From Escherichia coli (lineage in GTDB: Bacteria; Pseudomonadota; Gammaproteobacteria; Enterobacterales; Enterobacteriaceae): DNA of 64,000 bases. Both the position numbers and the translations under genes were made by a program. Shown here in pieces: positions 4,158 to 57,544 of this stretch. The stretch's first letter is position 1, and each line of letters begins with the position of its first letter. The notes under the pieces are model-generated. The model was not told the DNA's origin. It did no database searches and worked only from the letters and a program-made list of their open reading frames with translations. The stretch lies in assembly GCF_003334385.1 (NCBI RefSeq), contig NZ_QOWN01000008.1. One strand, given 5' to 3'.

Positions 4158-4916
4158 TCAGAAACGCAAGATCTGCGCCAGACTTGCGATTACGCCAGCG
4201 GGATTTTCCCGATGCGCGTTATGTCCGGCGCGAGGAATGACATGGCAGTCGGCAGCCAGTTCCGCCGCCAGGGCGCGGAATTTGCTGTCACGTTCACCAC
4301 ATAAATAATAAAACGCAAATGTGCGGGCGCTAAGGTTAGCACGTAAATCAGGCTGGACGGCGAGAGAAGTCGCCTCCAGCATGGCGGCAAGCGTTGCGCC
4401 ATTATTGTTGCTGCGCAGCGCCACCAGCTCCCGGCGTTGATCGTCATTGAGTGAGGCAAAAACAGGCTGTTGATACCAGTCGGCAAATACCGCCGTTAAC
4501 GGTTCTGTGAGAAAACGCTGCACCCATTGGCGATCGGAACGCTGACGTTCCGCACGTTGTTCAGCATTTTGCAGCCCCGGATGCCCGCCTTCGACAATAA
4601 CCCCACAAAGCCCCGCCAGCCCCTGGCAAGCCGCCATCATCGCCACCCGTCCACCAAGCGAGTACCCCACCAGCCAGAAGTCAAGGATGTTGTAACTAAC
4701 CAAGGTTTTACGCAGTAAGTCGGTGACATCATCAAATCCATCGACGCTAATCGCCGCCGAACCACCGTGACCTGGGAGATCAACATACAACCGTGAGTAG
4801 TCGGCAAACGCCTCGCCCACTTCTTGCCATTCGTGGCAATCGCCGGAAAAACCGTGCAAAAACACCAGCCAGGGTAAACCTGGTTTTCCGTGTTTTGCCT
4901 GCGCGTGCAGGATCAT
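4158..4916 (-). CDS. menH: SHCHC synthase, alpha/beta hydrolase (252 aa)
   Basis: [26 protein letters not shown]... with GYSLGG nucleophile elbow; 4-nt overlap with menD. Confidence 0.9.
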
Positions 4917-8405: not shown

Positions 8406-8867
8406 TTACGCCTGAATTACCTCGCGTGCCATCCCAATGTGTGGGATACCATCTTCTTCATAGACCTCCGTCACAGGGATAAAACCGAAACTCTGGTAGA
8501 AGTTTTGCAGATGCGCCTGCGCCCCGAGGTAAACAGGCTTATCAGGCCAGTGATGCGTACATGTTTCGAGTGTTTTACTCATCAGCTGCTGCCCCACTTT
8601 TTCGCCACGCAACGCTTCACTGACAATCACCCGACCTATAACGACCGGCTCAAGATCATCATCACTTTTCAGAATCCTCGCATACGCCACCAGTTCATCA
8701 TTTTTCCAACCGAGAATATGGCGATTATCCCCCGTCAAATCATCACCATCGATATCCTGATAAGGGCAATTCTGCTCGACAACAAACACCGCGCAACGCA
8801 GTTGTAATAAGGCATAAAGCTGGGAAACCGATAATTCAGAGTGATGCAGATCTTGCCATTCAATCAT
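8406..8867 (-). CDS. elaA: ElaA, GNAT-family N-acetyltransferase (153 aa)
   Basis: MIEWQDLHHSELSVSQLYALLQLRCAVFVVEQNCPYQDIDGDD... recognised as ElaA. Confidence 0.88.
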   Translation of the reverse strand: MIEWQDLHHSELSVSQLYALLQLRCAVFVVEQNCPYQDIDGDDLTGDNRHILGWKNDELVAYARILKSDDDLEPVVIGRVIVSEALRGEKVGQQLMSKTLETCTHHWPDKPVYLGAQAHLQNFYQSFGFIPVTEVYEEDGIPHIGMAREVIQA

Positions 8868-34877: not shown

Positions 34878-36095
34878 ATGTCCCCCATTGAAAAATCCAG
34901 CAAATTAGAGAATGTCTGTTATGACATCCGTGGTCCGGTGCTGAAAGAAGCAAAACGCCTGGAAGAAGAAGGTAACAAGGTACTGAAACTGAACATCGGC
35001 AACCCAGCCCCGTTCGGTTTTGACGCGCCAGATGAAATCCTCGTTGACGTGATACGCAACCTGCCTACCGCTCAAGGGTATTGCGATTCCAAAGGTCTTT
35101 ACTCCGCGCGTAAAGCCATCATGCAGCACTACCAGGCTCGTGGCATGCGTGATGTTACCGTGGAAGATATTTACATCGGCAATGGTGTATCGGAGCTTAT
35201 CGTTCAGGCAATGCAGGCATTGCTGAACAGCGGGGACGAAATGTTGGTTCCTGCACCAGATTACCCACTCTGGACCGCGGCGGTTTCGCTTTCCAGCGGT
35301 AAAGCGGTGCATTATCTTTGCGATGAATCCTCTGACTGGTTCCCGGACCTCGATGATATTCGCGCTAAAATTACGCCTCGTACGCGTGGGATCGTTATTA
35401 TCAACCCAAATAACCCAACCGGCGCGGTATATTCCAAAGAGCTTTTAATGGAGATTGTGGAGATTGCACGTCAGCATAATCTCATTATCTTCGCCGATGA
35501 AATTTATGACAAAATTCTCTACGACGACGCTGAGCATCACTCAATTGCGCCGCTGGCACCTGACCTGCTGACCATTACCTTTAACGGACTGTCGAAAACG
35601 TACCGCGTTGCAGGCTTCCGTCAGGGGTGGATGGTGTTGAACGGGCCGAAAAAACACGCCAAAGGCTACATCGAAGGTCTGGAAATGCTGGCTTCAATGC
35701 GCCTGTGTGCTAACGTTCCTGCGCAACACGCCATTCAGACCGCGCTAGGTGGTTATCAGAGCATCAGTGAATTTATTACCCCTGGCGGTCGTCTTTATGA
35801 GCAGCGTAACCGCGCGTGGGAACTGATCAACGATATTCCGGGCGTTTCCTGCGTGAAACCTCGTGGTGCGCTGTATATGTTCCCGAAAATCGACGCCAAA
35901 CGCTTTAACATTCACGACGATCAGAAAATGGTGCTGGATTTCCTGTTGCAGGAAAAAGTTCTGTTGGTGCAAGGGACGGCATTCAACTGGCCGTGGCCGG
36001 ATCACTTCCGCATTGTCACGCTACCGCGTGTCGATGATATCGAGCTGTCTTTGAGCAAGTTCGCGCGTTTCCTTTCTGGTTATCATCAGCTGTAA
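34878..36095 (+). CDS. alaA: Glutamate-pyruvate aminotransferase AlaA, PLP-dependent (405 aa)
   Basis: MSPIEKSSKLENVCYDIRGPVLKEAKRLEEEGNKVLKLNIGNPAPFGF... aminotransferase class I with PLP-lysine context (FNGLSKTYRVAGFRQGW). Confidence 0.93.
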   Translation: MSPIEKSSKLENVCYDIRGPVLKEAKRLEEEGNKVLKLNIGNPAPFGFDAPDEILVDVIRNLPTAQGYCDSKGLYSARKAIMQHYQARGMRDVTVEDIYIGNGVSELIVQAMQALLNSGDEMLVPAPDYPLWTAAVSLSSGKAVHYLCDESSDWFPDLDDIRAKITPRTRGIVIINPNNPTGAVYSKELLMEIVEIARQHNLIIFADEIYDKILYDDAEHHSIAPLAPDLLTITFNGLSKTYRVAGFRQGWMVLNGPKKHAKGYIEGLEMLASMRLCANVPAQHAIQTALGGYQSISEFITPGGRLYEQRNRAWELINDIPGVSCVKPRGALYMFPKIDAKRFNIHDDQKMVLDFLLQEKVLLVQGTAFNWPWPDHFRIVTLPRVDDIELSLSKFARFLSGYHQL

Positions 36096-53311: not shown

Positions 53312-54094
53312 TTAGCCACCATAAACATCAAAATCGAAGTACTTTTTCGCTAATTTCTCGTAAGTACCGTCAGCGCGCATTTCGGCAAAGGCTTTGTTCA
53401 GTGCTTCGCGCAGTTCGTTATCTTCTTTACGCAGGCCCATGCCGGTCCCTACGCCAAACAGTTTTTCATCTTTAACAGACGGGCCACCGAATTTGTAATC
53501 TTTACCGACAGGTTGTTTGAGGAAACCTTCGCTGGCAGCGACCTCATCCTGGAACGCGGCATCAATACGTCCGGCAGTCAGGTCAGAATAAATGTTGTCC
53601 TGCCCCTGATACGAGACGATTTCAATGCCTTTTGGTGCCCAATGTTCATTACCGAACGTCTCCTGGGTGGTGCCCTGCAATACGCCTACCCGTTTGCCTT
53701 TCAGCGACTCGACTGTCGGCTGAATGTCAGAATTTTTCGCCACCACCAAACGAGAATCGGCAGCGTACAGTTTGTCGGTGAAGGCTATTTCTTGCTGACG
53801 TTTTTCCGTAATGGAAAGCGATGACATGATGGCGTCAATCTTCTTCGCTTTTAAGGACGGGATTAACGCATCCAGCGGATTTTCGACAAACGTACATTGC
53901 GTATTGATGCGTTTGCATAATTCCTTTGCCAGATCGATATCGAAGCCAACCAGTTCGCCTTGTGAATTTTTTGATTCAAATGGCGCATAGGTCGGGTCGG
54001 TACCGATGCGGATGTTTTGCGGAATCGCAGCAAACGCCGCAGTTGCGCTGGAGAAGGCCAGAACCAGAGAGAGCGATAGCACCAGTTTTTTCAT
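53312..54094 (-). CDS. hisJ: Histidine-binding periplasmic protein (260 aa)
   Basis: Signal peptide [22 protein letters not shown]; paralogous to the adjacent argT product. Confidence 0.93.
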
Positions 54095-54239
54095 AATGTC
54101 CTCAACTGACAGTCTTTTTATAGGGAATATTTACAGGTTTGTTACACTTATCGTGCCATAAAATTGACCATCAAGGCAAAATATCCCGCCCCGTTAGACG
54201 TATTATTTTTCATTAAAAATGCTTAAGTATGCATTTCAA

Positions 54240-54256
54240 TGCACCACGATAGTGCA
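54240..54256. promoter_or_regulatory. NtrC-like palindrome between argT and hisJ
   Basis: TGCACC-acgat-aGTGCA matches the NtrC consensus TGCACC-N5-GGTGCA at 11 of 12 positions; a second partial copy (tggcgtgcacc) lies about 10 bp downstream. Confidence 0.35.
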
Positions 54257-54314
54257 ACAAACCTGGCGTGCACCATGATGATCATTCCATCAGGTACAGC
54301 TTCCCAGCGACGTA

Positions 54315-55097
54315 TCAGTCACCGTAGACATTAAAGTCGAAATACTTTTTCGCCATCTTGTCGTAGGTGCCGTCCTGACGCAGCTCGCCAAGCGCCTTAT
54401 TGAAGGCAGCCGTCAGTTCAGCATCATCTTTACGTAGCCCTACACCGGTGCCATCACCGAAGTATTTTTTGTCTTTTACTGATGAGCCAGCAAAGGCGAA
54501 ATCTTTACCAGCAGGTTGCTTGAGGAATCCTTCGCTGGCAGCAACTTCATCTTGTAACGCAGCATCCAGACGTCCTGCAGCCAGATCGGAATAGACCAAA
54601 TCCTGGTTGGCATAGGCCACCACATCCACGCCTTTACTACGCCAGGTCTCGTTAGCGTAAGCTTCCTGGGTTGATCCCTGCAGCACACCAACATGTTTAC
54701 CTTTCAGTGAATCCAGCGTTGGCTGAATCGGTGAACCTTTGGCCGCAATCAAACGAGAATCTGCGGCGTACAGCTTGTCGGAGAAGGCAATCTCCTGCTG
54801 ACGTTTATCGGTAATGGAAAGCGACGAAATAATAGCGTCGATTTTTTTCGCTTTCAGTGAGGGGATCAGCGCGTCAAAGTCACTGGCAACCCAGGTACAT
54901 TTCACCTGCATCCGTTTGCACATCTCGTTACCGAGATCGATATCAAAGCCAACAAAATCACCTTTAGCATCTTTCGATGAGAACGGTGCGTAGGTGGTAT
55001 CGGTTCCGATACGTACCGTCTCCGGTAGCGCCGCATAGCTGGAAGCCGCTGTGGAGAGACCGACTAACAAAGACAGAGCGAGAATCGACTTCTTCAT
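54315..55097 (-). CDS. argT: Lysine/arginine/ornithine-binding periplasmic protein (260 aa)
   Basis: Signal peptide [22 protein letters not shown]; paralog of hisJ, upstream of hisJQMP. Confidence 0.93.
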
Positions 55098-55165
55098 ACA
55101 TAACCCTCAAGTGAAAATGGCTTTTTTATGTTGTGTATTGTGTTGTGTGTTTGCAGGCTCTTTCA

Positions 55166-55181
55166 TGCAGGTCTTATGCCA
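55166..55181 (-). promoter_or_regulatory. Sigma54-type -24/-12 element upstream of argT
   Basis: Minus-strand reading TGGCAT-aagac-CTGCA has GG-N10-GC spacing like the consensus TGGCAC-N5-TTGCA; about 70 nt upstream of the argT ATG. Confidence 0.4.
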
Positions 55182-55327
55182 TCTTGACGACAACAGTAAC
55201 ATTCAACGTTAAATATGTTAATAAGACGTTGCATTATTGTCCTGAAGTTGAAGATAGCAGGTATAGCGGTTGAATCGCAGCGTTTCGATTGAATGGCAGA
55301 AACAAAATGTCGAGGATTTGATCGCGG

Positions 55328-55356
55328 TTGCAAAATTGCCCTGAAACAGGGCAACA
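55328..55356 (-). terminator. Rho-independent terminator after ubiX (end of cvpA-purF-ubiX)
   Basis: Perfect palindrome TTGCCCTG-aaa-CAGGGCAA; followed on the minus strand by TTTTG. Confidence 0.6.
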
Positions 55357-55362
55357 GCGGAG

Positions 55363-55932
55363 TTATGCGCCCTGCCAGCGGGCAAAGAGATCTTCAGGAA
55401 GGGTTATCGCAAACTGGTCAAGAACACGATTAACCGTCTGATTTATCACATCATCAAGGGATTGCGGGCGATGATAAAACGCCGGAACGGGAGGCATAAT
55501 CACCGCACCGATTTCTGCCGCCTGAGTCATTAAACGCAGATGGCCTAAGTGCAATGGTGTTTCACGCACGCAGAGCACCAACGGGCGACGCTCTTTCAGC
55601 ACCACATCTGCCGCACGGGTCAGTAAGCCATCAGTATAGCTATGGACAATGCCGGAAAGGGTTTTGATTGAACAGGGTAAAATCACCATCCCCAGCGTCT
55701 GGAAAGAACCGGAAGAGATGCTGGCGGCAATATCGCGCGCATCGTGCGTGACATCGGCTAATGCCTGCACTTCGCGCAGAGAAAAATCCGTTTCGAGGGA
55801 TAAGGTCTGGCGCGCTGCCTGGCTCATCACCAGATGCGTTTCGATATCTGTGACATCGCGCAGAACCTGTAATAAGCGCACGCCATAAATCGCGCCGCTG
55901 GCACCGCTGATGCCTACAATGAGTCGTTTCAT
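55363..55932 (-). CDS. ubiX: Flavin prenyltransferase UbiX (189 aa)
   Basis: MKRLIVGISGASGAIYGVRLLQVLRD... Confidence 0.95.
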   Translation of the reverse strand: MKRLIVGISGASGAIYGVRLLQVLRDVTDIETHLVMSQAARQTLSLETDFSLREVQALADVTHDARDIAASISSGSFQTLGMVILPCSIKTLSGIVHSYTDGLLTRAADVVLKERRPLVLCVRETPLHLGHLRLMTQAAEIGAVIMPPVPAFYHRPQSLDDVINQTVNRVLDQFAITLPEDLFARWQGA

Positions 55933-56026
55933 AAATAGTTGCCCTGTCAGACTTGCAGGCAGACTTTGCAGGATTTCGGCGGGAGTTGCAAGTCAGGGTG
56001 CCAGACCGGCACCCTCAGCGAAGGCA

Positions 56027-57544
56027 TCATCCTTCGTTATGCATTTCGAGATTTTCCACTTCGTTCTGACGTTGCACTGCTTTGGCGTCATCATTACGTA
56101 ACGTATCGAGGAAATCGAGGTAGCCCTGATCAACATCTTTGGTGACGTAGACGCCGTTGAACACCGAGCATTCAAACTGCTGGATATCCGGATTTTCAGC
56201 GCGAACGGCGTCGATCAGATCGTTCAGATCCTGGAAAATCAACCCGTCAGCACCGATGATCTGGCGAATTTCATCAACTTCGCGACCGTGAGCGATCAGT
56301 TCCGTGGCGCTCGGCATATCAATACCATAAACGTTCGGGAAGCGAATTTCCGGTGCCGCAGAAGCGAGGTACACTTTCTTCGCTCCGGCTTCGCGTGCCA
56401 TCTCGATAATCTGCTCAGAAGTGGTGCCACGGACGATGGAGTCGTCGACCAGCAGGACGTTTTTATCGCGGAACTCGGCGCGGTTGGCATTCAGTTTACG
56501 GCGCACGGACTTACGACGCAGCTGCTGGCCCGGCATGATAAAGGTGCGGCCAACATAGCGGTTTTTAACGAAGCCCTGGCGGTACGGTTTGCCCAGAATA
56601 CGAGCAATTTCCAGCGCGATATCACACGAGGTTTCTGGGATCGGGATCACCACGTCGATATCCAGATCTTCCCATTCGCGGGCAATTTTCTCGCCCAGTT
56701 TCGTGCCCATATTCACACGCGCGCTGTAAACGGAAATTTTGTCGATAAACGAGTCCGGGCGGGCAAAGTATACATACTCAAACAGGCACGGATTGCTGAC
56801 CGGATTGTCAGCACATTGACGGGTAAACAACTGCCCTTCTTCAGTGATGTAAATCGCTTCGCCCGGCGCGACGTCACGCAGGAAATCAAAGCCCAGCGTA
56901 TCGAGCGCTACGCTTTCGGAAGCGACCATATATTCTGTACGGTTCTCGTCAATATCACGTTTTCCCAGTACCAGCGGACGAATCCCGTTTGGATCGCGGA
57001 AAGCAACCATACCGTGGCCGATAATCATCGCCACACAGGCATACGCGCCGCGGATTAAGCGGTTTGTGGCAGCAATGGCAGCGAAAATATTGTCGGCTTC
57101 CAGCGGGTAGTGGCGGAAGTTGTCCAGCTCGCTGGCGAAGATATTAAGCAGAATTTCCGAGTCGGAAGTGGTGTTGATGTGGCGGCGTTTTTCTTCAAAC
57201 AGTTTTTTACGCAACTCGTGAGCGTTGGTCAGATTGCCGTTGTGGGCAAGCGTAATGCCATACGGGGAGTTAACGTAAAACGGCTGCGCTTCAGAGGCGC
57301 TGGAGCTGCCAGCCGTGGGGTAACGCACATGACCAATGCCCATATTGCCCTGCAAACGCTGCATATGGCGAGCTTCAAATACATCGCTCACCAGCCCGTT
57401 CGCTTTACGCAAACGGAAGCAGTTATTGGCATCTATGGTGATGATGCCGGCGGCATCCTGACCGCGATGCTGAAGCACCGTTAAGGCATCATAAATCGAC
57501 TGGTTAACCGGCATAACACCGGCGATACCGACAATACCGCACAT
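56027..57544 (-). CDS. purF: Amidophosphoribosyltransferase (505 aa)
   Basis: N-terminal MCGIVGIAG (Ntn Cys) plus PRTase motif. Confidence 0.97.

What the first reader, a model, noticed from the sequence alone, without database searches (positions are those of the whole stretch)
55166..55181. Sigma54-like -24/-12 promoter upstream of argT
Minus-strand TGGCAT-N5-CTGCA has the invariant GG and GC dinucleotides at the correct 10-bp spacing, about 70 nt upstream of the argT start codon. That would make argT a nitrogen-regulated, enhancer-dependent gene. I could not find canonical NtrC sites in the 150 bp further upstream by eye.
Basis: partly seen in the sequence, partly recalled or inferred. Interest (0 to 1): 0.3.

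Follow-up and report, generated by a model that had tools for sequence, protein, structure and literature searches.

The report
Known sigma-54 promoter of argT

Summary
The window is E. coli K-12 (100% identical to MG1655). TGGCATAAGACCTGCA lies at 55166-55181 on the minus strand, 68 nt before the argT ATG, as described.

Sequence alone is weak evidence. It is the best sigma-54 PWM hit in the window, but about 1.3 hits this good are expected by chance per 64 kb.

Context and outside data settle it:
- The TGGCA and TGC cores are invariant in 80 of 80 Enterobacteriaceae orthologous loci, while the spacer between them varies.
- The same 17-mer is a published sigma-54 ChIP-seq site (Bonocora 2015, site OS22).
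- It is bound by sigma-54 holoenzyme in vitro (Shimada 2021).
- It is identical in Salmonella, where argT is an accepted sigma-54/NtrC gene.
- NtrC ChIP-seq gives a weak peak on it in nitrogen-starved E. coli.

The ubiX-argT spacer has no match with 3 or fewer mismatches. Many other genera carry NtrC-type palindromes at two fixed positions upstream, and Escherichia has lost them. The only strong NtrC site in the window is 54240-54256, ahead of hisJ.

The element also overlaps a sigma-70 promoter and represses it (Schaefer 2015).

Verdict: already known, low interest.

The parts
55166..55182 (-). Sigma-54 -24/-12 promoter element ATGGCATAAGACCTGCA (GG 55180-55179, GC 55168-55167)
   Evidence: Sequence. 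Top PWM hit in the window. TGGCA and TGC invariant in 80/80 orthologous loci. Published sigma-54 ChIP-seq site OS22, and the only high-stringency site in the window's genome range.
55153..55157 (-). Predicted sigma-54 transcription start (55155 +/- 2), giving a 58-nt 5' UTR
   Evidence: Inferred from the rule of 19 bp downstream of the motif centre, as used in PMC4591121 Table 1, which gives 'Distance 58'. Not mapped experimentally in any source I could read.
55129..55153 (-). C/A-rich stretch of the argT 5' UTR (CAAACACACAACACAATACACAACA)
   Evidence: Sequence. CA-repeat tracts of variable length occur at this place in the orthologues. argT is a listed GcvB R1-seed target, verified in Salmonella and conserved in E. 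coli (PMC9299463). The pairing itself was not tested here.
54315..55097 (-). argT coding sequence (lysine/arginine/ornithine-binding periplasmic protein)
   Evidence: ORF list and RefSeq annotation of identical E. coli genomes.
55193..55221 (-). Putative overlapping sigma-70 promoter: -35 TTAACA (55221-55216), 17-nt spacer, extended -10 TGtTACTGT (55201-55193), start near 55187
   Evidence: Schaefer 2015 Suppl. Table S3 puts the sigma-54 motif at +6..+22 of the active sigma-70 start, with argT expression in rpoN+ at 23% of the rpoN-null level. The hexamer assignment is my reading of the sequence. The -35 block is conserved across genera, but the -10 is not conserved outside Escherichia. The generic promoter scan did not call it.
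55336..55354 (-). ubiX terminator-like hairpin TTGCCCTG-TTT-CAGGGCAA followed by TTTT. It occupies the 'proximal' position (164 bp upstream of the -24 T) where Klebsiella, Raoultella and Pluralibacter have an NtrC-type palindrome
   Evidence: RNA fold: 9-bp stem, -16.1 kcal/mol, z -2.6. It has 5 mismatches to the NtrC consensus in E. coli, against 1-2 mismatches in Klebsiella pneumoniae, Raoultella and Pluralibacter at the same anchored position.
55208..55323 (-). Conserved upstream blocks of unassigned function: GATCAAATCC (55323-55314), CTGCTATCTT (55260-55251), TGCAAC...TTAACATATTTAACG (55233-55208)
   Evidence: Column conservation across 80 distinct upstream sequences is as high as at the -24/-12 core. 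None matches the NtrC consensus. No binding factor was tested.
54240..54256 (.). The only near-consensus NtrC palindrome in the window (TGCACTATCGTGGTGCA, 1 mismatch), in the argT-hisJ spacer about 907 bp downstream of the predicted argT start
   Evidence: Consensus scan. It coincides with the 23.7-fold NtrC ChIP-seq peak 'hisJQMP' after coordinate conversion to window 54225-54305. NtrC-like sites are present in this spacer in nearly all orthologous loci.
54143..54159 (-). Decayed sigma-54-like element ahead of hisJ (ATGGCACGATAAGTGTA; the -12 GC is lost)
   Evidence: PWM 12.8 bits. The orthologous element is ATGGCACGATAACTGCA (18.3 bits) in Citrobacter, Franconibacter and others. hisJ is absent from the sigma-54 ChIP-seq tables and from the held supplements.

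Best explanation
The element is the sigma-54 (RpoN) -24/-12 promoter of E. coli argT.

Shown, here or in published work:
- RNA polymerase carrying sigma-54 occupies it as a closed complex in vivo and in vitro.
- In nitrogen-starved cells NtrC is detected at the promoter and argT is up-regulated.
- While idle, the bound sigma-54 holoenzyme sits at +6..+22 of an overlapping sigma-70 promoter and lowers its output. The same element therefore works as a switch: repressive in nitrogen excess and productive in nitrogen starvation.

Inferred:
- Phosphorylated NtrC uses ATP hydrolysis to open the complex, and transcription starts near 55155, giving a 58-nt leader.
- E. coli has no recognisable NtrC palindrome in the ubiX-argT spacer, so NtrC must reach the promoter in one of three ways: from solution at the high NtrC levels of severe starvation, through weak unrecognised sites, or by looping from the strong NtrC site about 907 bp downstream in the argT-hisJ spacer.
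For: Sequence and geometry. Best sigma-54 PWM hit in the window. TGGCA and TGC invariant, with a variable spacer, 50-89 nt before the ATG in 80/80 species-representative Enterobacteriaceae loci. The 101-nt promoter segment is present in 5426/5426 complete E. coli genomes at >=95% identity.

Sigma-54 ChIP-seq site OS22 has the identical 17-mer and is the only high-stringency site in the window's genome range. RpoN holoenzyme alone binds the spacer in gSELEX. The identical 18-mer in Salmonella LT2 is bound in ChIP-chip and is 3.5-fold up in wild type versus delta-rpoN with DctD250, which the paper describes as a promiscuous, constitutively active enhancer-binding protein.

An NtrC ChIP-seq signal lies at window 55145-55225, and the paper reports all 21 NtrC-bound units, argT included, as up-regulated in N-starved E. 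coli. The literature states that argT is sigma-54/NtrC dependent. For the roadblock role: argT expression in rpoN+ is 23% of the rpoN-null level, the motif lies at +6..+22 of the sigma-70 start, and sigma-54 competes with sigma-70 in vitro.
Against: The PWM score is not above chance for 128 kb of sequence, with 1.29 sites expected. As of the 2015 paper, EcoCyc listed the promoter as predicted rather than confirmed, and I found no mapped sigma-54 start site for E. coli argT.

The NtrC ChIP peak at argT is weak: 5.4-fold, below the authors' 9-fold cut-off, and added by eye. NtrC alone gave no gSELEX peak at argT above the 40% cut-off. There is no NtrC palindrome with 3 or fewer mismatches in the spacer. 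In rich medium, removing rpoN raises argT expression rather than lowering it.
Confidence: 0.92

Rival explanations
1. The site is mainly a 'repressive' sigma-54 binding site. Its physiological role in E. coli is to occlude the overlapping sigma-70 promoter, and productive sigma-54 transcription contributes little.
For: argT expression in rpoN+ is 23% of the rpoN-null level, the motif lies at +6..+22 of the sigma-70 start, and sigma-54 reduces sigma-70 initiation in vitro. Shimada 2021 proposes such 'repressive promoters' in general and finds holoenzyme-alone binding here. E. coli lacks a local NtrC palindrome.
Against: argT is among the units reported as up-regulated in N-starved cells, with NtrC at the promoter. 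The identical Salmonella promoter is activated 3.5-fold in an rpoN-dependent way. The -24/-12 core is conserved in genera where the putative sigma-70 -10 is not, so the core is not kept merely to block that promoter.
Confidence: 0.12
2. Remote-enhancer version: in E. coli the argT sigma-54 promoter is activated by NtrC bound at the strong palindrome in the argT-hisJ spacer (54240-54256), about 907 bp downstream, through DNA looping. Nitrogen induction of hisJQMP then comes largely from read-through.
For: That palindrome is the only near-consensus NtrC site in the window and has the strong NtrC ChIP peak, 23.7-fold. The hisJ sigma-54-like element has lost its -12 GC in Escherichia and gives no reported sigma-54 ChIP peak. 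argT has the intact promoter but has lost the upstream palindromes found in other genera. The weak NtrC signal at argT sits on the promoter itself, as expected for a looped contact. argT-hisJQMP is treated as one operon. From established knowledge, NtrC sites work at kilobase distances and from downstream positions when moved (Reitzer & Magasanik 1986, which is reference 40).
Against: There is no direct test. The hisJ element still scores 12.8 bits and resembles -12 'TGT' promoters such as pspA, so it may itself be the target of that enhancer. A promiscuous enhancer-binding protein activates the Salmonella promoter, and if it acts without DNA binding, no enhancer is strictly needed. The conserved upstream blocks could hold weak sites.
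Confidence: 0.2
3. Chance match with no function.
For: About 1.3 equally good PWM hits are expected per window by chance. GG-N10-GC alone is uninformative.
Against: Core invariance in 80/80 loci across more than 20 genera, while the flanking bases vary. Independent sigma-54 binding data in vivo and in vitro in two species.
Confidence: 0.01

Closest known systems
Salmonella enterica Typhimurium argT (argTr) sigma-54 promoter
   Same: Orthologous gene with the identical 18-mer TGGCATAAGACCTGCATG. It is bound by sigma-54, is rpoN-dependent, and is assigned to NtrC.
   Different: The upstream neighbourhood differs. Salmonella keeps the roughly 26-bp segment after ubiX that Escherichia lacks, but the sequence there is also degenerate, with 6 mismatches in the two Salmonella subspecies sampled.
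E. coli glnAp2 (the canonical NtrC/sigma-54 promoter)
   Same: The same -24/-12 architecture, the same activator, and the same nitrogen-starvation signal. From established knowledge, glnAp2 has two strong NtrC sites about three helical turns apart. That matches the 31-bp spacing of the two palindrome positions seen upstream of argT in other genera.
   Different: glnA gives a 71-fold NtrC ChIP peak against 5.4-fold at argT. E. coli argT has no recognisable local NtrC site.
glmY/glmZ-type overlapping sigma-70/sigma-54 promoters
   Same: Sigma-54 holoenzyme and sigma-70 holoenzyme compete for overlapping sites, so removing rpoN can raise expression (glmZ in Salmonella; argT in E. coli).
   Different: At glmY/glmZ the two promoters overlap fully. 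At argT the sigma-54 site lies just downstream of the sigma-70 start, at +6..+22. The activator is GlrR there and NtrC here.
hisJ control region in the same window
   Same: A paralogous neighbour of the same transporter system with a sigma-54-like element and NtrC sites. It is nitrogen regulated and bound by NtrC.
   Different: In E. coli the hisJ -12 element has lost GC and no sigma-54 ChIP peak is reported. hisJQMP is described as sigma-70/ArgR controlled in exponential growth.

Membership tests
Sigma-54 (RpoN) -24/-12 promoters | GG at -24 and GC at -12 with exactly 10 intervening bases, within TGGCAC-N5-TTGCW | tested here: met
   TGGCAT-AAGAC-CTGCA at 55181-55166.
Sigma-54 (RpoN) -24/-12 promoters | Overall match within the range of experimentally bound sites | tested here: met
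   Leave-one-out PWM score 14.8 bits; 13 of 41 bound intergenic sites score lower, and it is the top hit in the window. The score is not above chance on its own, with 1.29 expected per window.
Sigma-54 (RpoN) -24/-12 promoters | Correct orientation and a short distance upstream of a gene | tested here: met
   Same strand as argT, 68 nt from the motif end to the ATG, with a predicted 58-nt leader.
Sigma-54 (RpoN) -24/-12 promoters | Purifying selection on the core elements among orthologues | tested here: met
   TGGCA and TGC are invariant in 80/80 loci, while the spacer and the base 5' of TGGCA vary.
Sigma-54 (RpoN) -24/-12 promoters | Physical binding by sigma-54 holoenzyme | not testable with these tools
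   Published: ChIP-seq site OS22 with FAT 12, gSELEX peak at 61% with holoenzyme alone, and Salmonella ChIP-chip.
Sigma-54 (RpoN) -24/-12 promoters | Transcription that depends on rpoN and starts about 12 nt downstream of the GC | not testable with these tools
   Published: 3.5-fold in wild type versus delta-rpoN with DctD250 in Salmonella. EcoCyc status was 'predicted' in E. coli as of 2015. No mapped start was found in the papers held.
NtrC-activated promoters | NtrC-binding palindromes (TGCACC-N4-TGGTGCA), usually in tandem, within about 100-250 bp upstream | tested here: not met
   The best match in the 450 nt upstream in E. coli has 5 mismatches, and it is the ubiX terminator hairpin. Other genera do have such sites: at the distal position, 195 bp upstream of the -24 T, 37 of 81 sequences have 3 or fewer mismatches, against 0.18% of control positions.
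NtrC-activated promoters | NtrC occupancy and induction under nitrogen limitation | not testable with these tools
   Published: a weak NtrC ChIP-seq peak on the promoter (5.4-fold, added by eye), with argT among the units reported as up-regulated in N-starved cells. NtrC-alone gSELEX gave no peak above the cut-off.

The most novel reading that the evidence does not exclude
In Escherichia the two nitrogen-control regions of the argT-hisJQMP cluster have decayed in complementary ways. argT keeps an intact sigma-54 promoter but has lost its own upstream NtrC palindromes. hisJ keeps a near-perfect NtrC palindrome but has lost the -12 GC of its sigma-54 promoter. The surviving enhancer, about 907 bp downstream of the argT start, would then serve the surviving promoter by looping, with hisJQMP induced by read-through. 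That would be a natural case of a downstream-located bacterial enhancer.
Probability: 0.2. Interest if true: 0.4.

Novelty: already known. Interest (0 to 1): 0.1.

Why it matters
It places argT, which encodes the periplasmic binding protein for lysine, arginine and ornithine uptake, in the nitrogen-scavenging (Ntr) response. That is textbook E. coli and Salmonella physiology, so confirming it adds nothing new.

The value here is calibration. A bare GG-N10-GC or even a good PWM match is not evidence by itself; position, conservation and binding data are what count.

The comparative observation that Escherichia lost the upstream NtrC palindromes, and that hisJ shows the reverse decay, is a small testable point about how enhancer-promoter pairs are rewired.

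Tried and rejected
1. The older primary literature could not be read. Reitzer & Schneider 2001 and Zimmer 2000 were not held. A search for 'argTr' and 'dhuA' returned only unrelated papers. What those papers say therefore rests on citations in later papers.

2. The generic sigma-70 promoter and terminator scan of 54050-55450 called neither the sigma-70 promoter reported by Schaefer nor the ubiX hairpin. The sigma-70 hexamers given here are my own reading, anchored on the published +6..+22 position.

3. I tried to read the conserved upstream blocks (GATCAAATCC, CTGCTATCTT, TGCAAC...TTAACA) as NtrC sites. None comes within 3 mismatches of the NtrC consensus. Comparing them by eye with the IHF, ArgR and Lrp consensus sequences, recalled from memory, gave only partial matches, so I assign them no factor.

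4. An Rfam scan of 53900-55500 at E<=1 found nothing, so there is no described RNA family in the leader or spacers.

5. I looked for a hisJ sigma-54 peak in the held supplements of Bonocora 2015 and found none. Not every supplement may be held as text.

6. Chance match was rejected on conservation and binding data.

Full report
**Identity of the region.** Window 54000-56200 is 100% identical to E. coli K-12 MG1655 and is present in all 5426 complete E. coli genomes searched. On the minus strand the genes run purF (56027-57544), ubiX (55363-55932), argT (54315-55097), hisJ (53312-54094) and hisQMP. From the published motif centre, window coordinate = MG1655 (U00096.2) coordinate minus 2,370,716.

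**The observation.** The minus strand at 55181-55166 reads TGGCATAAGACCTGCA. GG and GC are separated by 10 bases, and the motif ends 68 nt before the argT ATG. The description is accurate.
- The exact pattern is unique in the window, with 0.05 expected.
- A degenerate version occurs twice, with 0.48 expected.
- GG-N10-GC alone occurs 660 times against 632 expected and means nothing.
- I built a PWM from the 41 other intergenic sigma-54 ChIP-seq motifs of Bonocora et al. 2015, leaving argT out. The 17-mer ATGGCATAAGACCTGCA scores 14.8 bits and is the best site in the window on either strand. It falls inside the range of bound sites, with 13 of 41 scoring lower.
- Shuffled windows nevertheless contain 1.29 sites of that quality on average.

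The sequence match alone therefore does not establish function.

**Conservation.** I fetched 80 species-representative loci encoding ArgT from Enterobacteriaceae, including Escherichia, Salmonella, Citrobacter, Enterobacter, Klebsiella, Raoultella, Kosakonia and Pluralibacter. Every one carries a sigma-54-type element 50-89 nt before the argT ATG. TGGCA and TGC are invariant, while the base 5' of TGGCA and the spacer between the two elements vary. The leader length and the sequence just upstream of the element also vary. This is the pattern expected for selection on the two recognition elements. Within E. coli, the 101-nt promoter segment is present in 5426/5426 genomes at >=95% identity.

**Published binding and expression data.**
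- Bonocora et al. 2015 (PMC4591121), Table 1, row OS22, lists a sigma-54 ChIP-seq peak at 2425886. It has this exact 17-mer, FAT 12, 58 bp from the predicted start to argT, and an EcoCyc status of 'predicted'.
- It is the only high-stringency sigma-54 site in the genome range covered by the window. The other PWM hits in the window are not listed.
- Shimada et al. 2021 (PMC8743547) found that RpoN holoenzyme alone binds the ubiX-argT spacer in vitro, at 61%, and at 55% with NtrC added.
- Samuels et al. 2013 (PMC3844500) list the identical 18-mer in Salmonella LT2 as bound in ChIP-chip. argT was 3.5-fold higher in wild type than in delta-rpoN when a promiscuous activator was expressed. They count argT among the four operons already shown experimentally to be sigma-54 dependent in Salmonella.
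- Brown et al. 2014 (PMC4066584) report an NtrC ChIP-seq signal at window 55145-55225 in N-starved E. coli, and report all 21 NtrC-bound units, argT included, as showing RNAP binding and up-regulation. The argT peak was only 5.4-fold and was added by visual inspection.

**A second role for the same element.** Schaefer et al. 2015 (PMC4551910) found argT among the genes whose expression is higher without sigma-54: the rpoN+ level is 23% of the rpoN-null level. They place the motif at +6..+22 of the active sigma-70 start, and show that sigma-54 lowers sigma-70 initiation on this template in vitro. Working back from that position, I read a sigma-70 promoter as follows:
- -35 TTAACA at 55221-55216;
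- a 17-nt spacer;
- an extended -10 TGtTACTGT at 55201-55193;
- a start near 55187.

The -35 block is conserved across genera, but the -10 is not conserved outside Escherichia. This hexamer assignment is an inference. The idle sigma-54 closed complex thus acts as a roadblock in nitrogen excess and as the promoter in starvation.

- The ubiX-argT spacer has no match with 3 or fewer mismatches to TGCACC-N4-TGGTGCA.
- The best match in the 450 nt upstream has 5 mismatches. It is the ubiX terminator hairpin TGCCCTGTTTCAGGGCA at 55353-55337, which folds with a 9-bp stem at -16.1 kcal/mol.
- NtrC alone gave no gSELEX peak here above the authors' cut-off.

Comparison with other genera explains this. 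I anchored each locus on the T of TGGCA. NtrC-type palindromes then recur at two fixed positions, centred 195 and 164 bp upstream and 31 bp apart.
- At the distal position, 37 of 81 sequences have 3 or fewer mismatches and 19 have 2 or fewer. Among 9625 control positions, 0.18% have 3 or fewer and none has 2 or fewer.
- The half-sites GCAC and GTGC are kept while the centre varies.
- Distal examples include Enterobacter cloacae TGCACCTGCAGGGTGCA and Klebsiella pneumoniae CGCACTATAGTGGTGCA. K. pneumoniae also has TGCGCTGCGGTGGTGCA at the proximal position, and Raoultella terrigena has TGCGCCCAGATGGTGCA there.
- In Escherichia, about 26 bp after the ubiX stop are missing, so the distal position falls inside ubiX. 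The proximal position holds only the terminator hairpin.
- Salmonella and most Citrobacter are degenerate there too.

These assignments are predictions from a consensus, not binding data.

**The neighbouring control region.** The only near-consensus NtrC site in the whole window is TGCACTATCGTGGTGCA at 54240-54256, between argT and hisJ. It coincides with the strong 23.7-fold NtrC ChIP-seq peak. Ninety bp downstream of it is a sigma-54-like element, ATGGCACGATAAGTGTA (54159-54143, 12.8 bits), which lacks the -12 GC. In Citrobacter, Franconibacter, Pseudocitrobacter and others the orthologous element is ATGGCACGATAACTGCA, at 18.3 bits. No sigma-54 peak at hisJ appears in the published tables or the held supplements.

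In E. coli, then, argT has the promoter without the palindromes and hisJ has the palindrome with a weakened promoter. Whether the hisJ-proximal enhancer serves the argT promoter from about 907 bp downstream is untested. I give that 0.2. The alternatives are activation from solution at high NtrC concentration, or weak sites in the conserved upstream blocks (55323-55314, 55260-55251, 55233-55208), whose function I could not assign.

**Verdict.** The feature is the known sigma-54/NtrC promoter of argT, so novelty is 'already known' and interest is low. What remains open is narrow: an experimentally mapped sigma-54 start site in E. coli, and the route by which NtrC reaches a promoter that has lost its local palindromes.

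Noticed in passing
window 54143-54159 (-) and 54240-54256: Ahead of hisJ there is a sigma-54-like element, ATGGCACGATAAGTGTA, that has lost the -12 GC. It sits 90 bp downstream of the only near-consensus NtrC palindrome in the window. Other genera have a strong element at the same place (ATGGCACGATAACTGCA). E. coli shows strong NtrC ChIP signal there but no reported sigma-54 ChIP signal.
   Followed up: partly
L026-L028, L030, L033-L035, L039, L040, L043, L044, L047, L048, L059, L060, L066, L067, L072, L073 (distal) and L028, L050, L051, L063 (proximal); sites about 240-305 nt before the argT ATG at 2501, or 1590 in L034: NtrC-type palindromes with 2 or fewer mismatches lie at two fixed positions, 195 and 164 bp upstream of the -24 T, directly after the ubiX stop. 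They occur in Enterobacter, Klebsiella, Raoultella, Trabulsiella, Pluralibacter, Pseudocitrobacter and others. Escherichia lacks about 26 bp there and has no such site.
   Followed up: yes
window 55336-55354 (-): A ubiX terminator-like hairpin, TTGCCCTG-TTT-CAGGGCAA plus a T run, is conserved nearly unchanged in 48 of 81 sequences. It occupies the position where some genera have an NtrC-like palindrome, so one palindrome may serve as both terminator and protein site in some lineages.
   Followed up: partly
window 55314-55323, 55251-55260, 55208-55233 (-): Three upstream blocks (GATCAAATCC, CTGCTATCTT, TGCAAC-N6-TTAACATATTTAACG) are conserved across genera about as strongly as the -24/-12 core. 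The last contains the inverted repeat CAACGT-N16-ACGTTG in E. coli. No factor was assigned.
   Followed up: partly
window 55129-55153 (-): The argT leader contains a C/A-rich tract whose length varies between genera through ACAAC-type repeats. argT is a published GcvB sRNA target (R1 seed).
   Followed up: partly
window 4165-4181 (-), 13611-13627 (+), 8493-8509 (+), 35553-35569 (+): Other sigma-54 PWM hits of 12.5-14.3 bits occur elsewhere in the window. None is listed as a high-stringency sigma-54 ChIP-seq site, which shows how many good-looking matches go unbound.
   Followed up: partly
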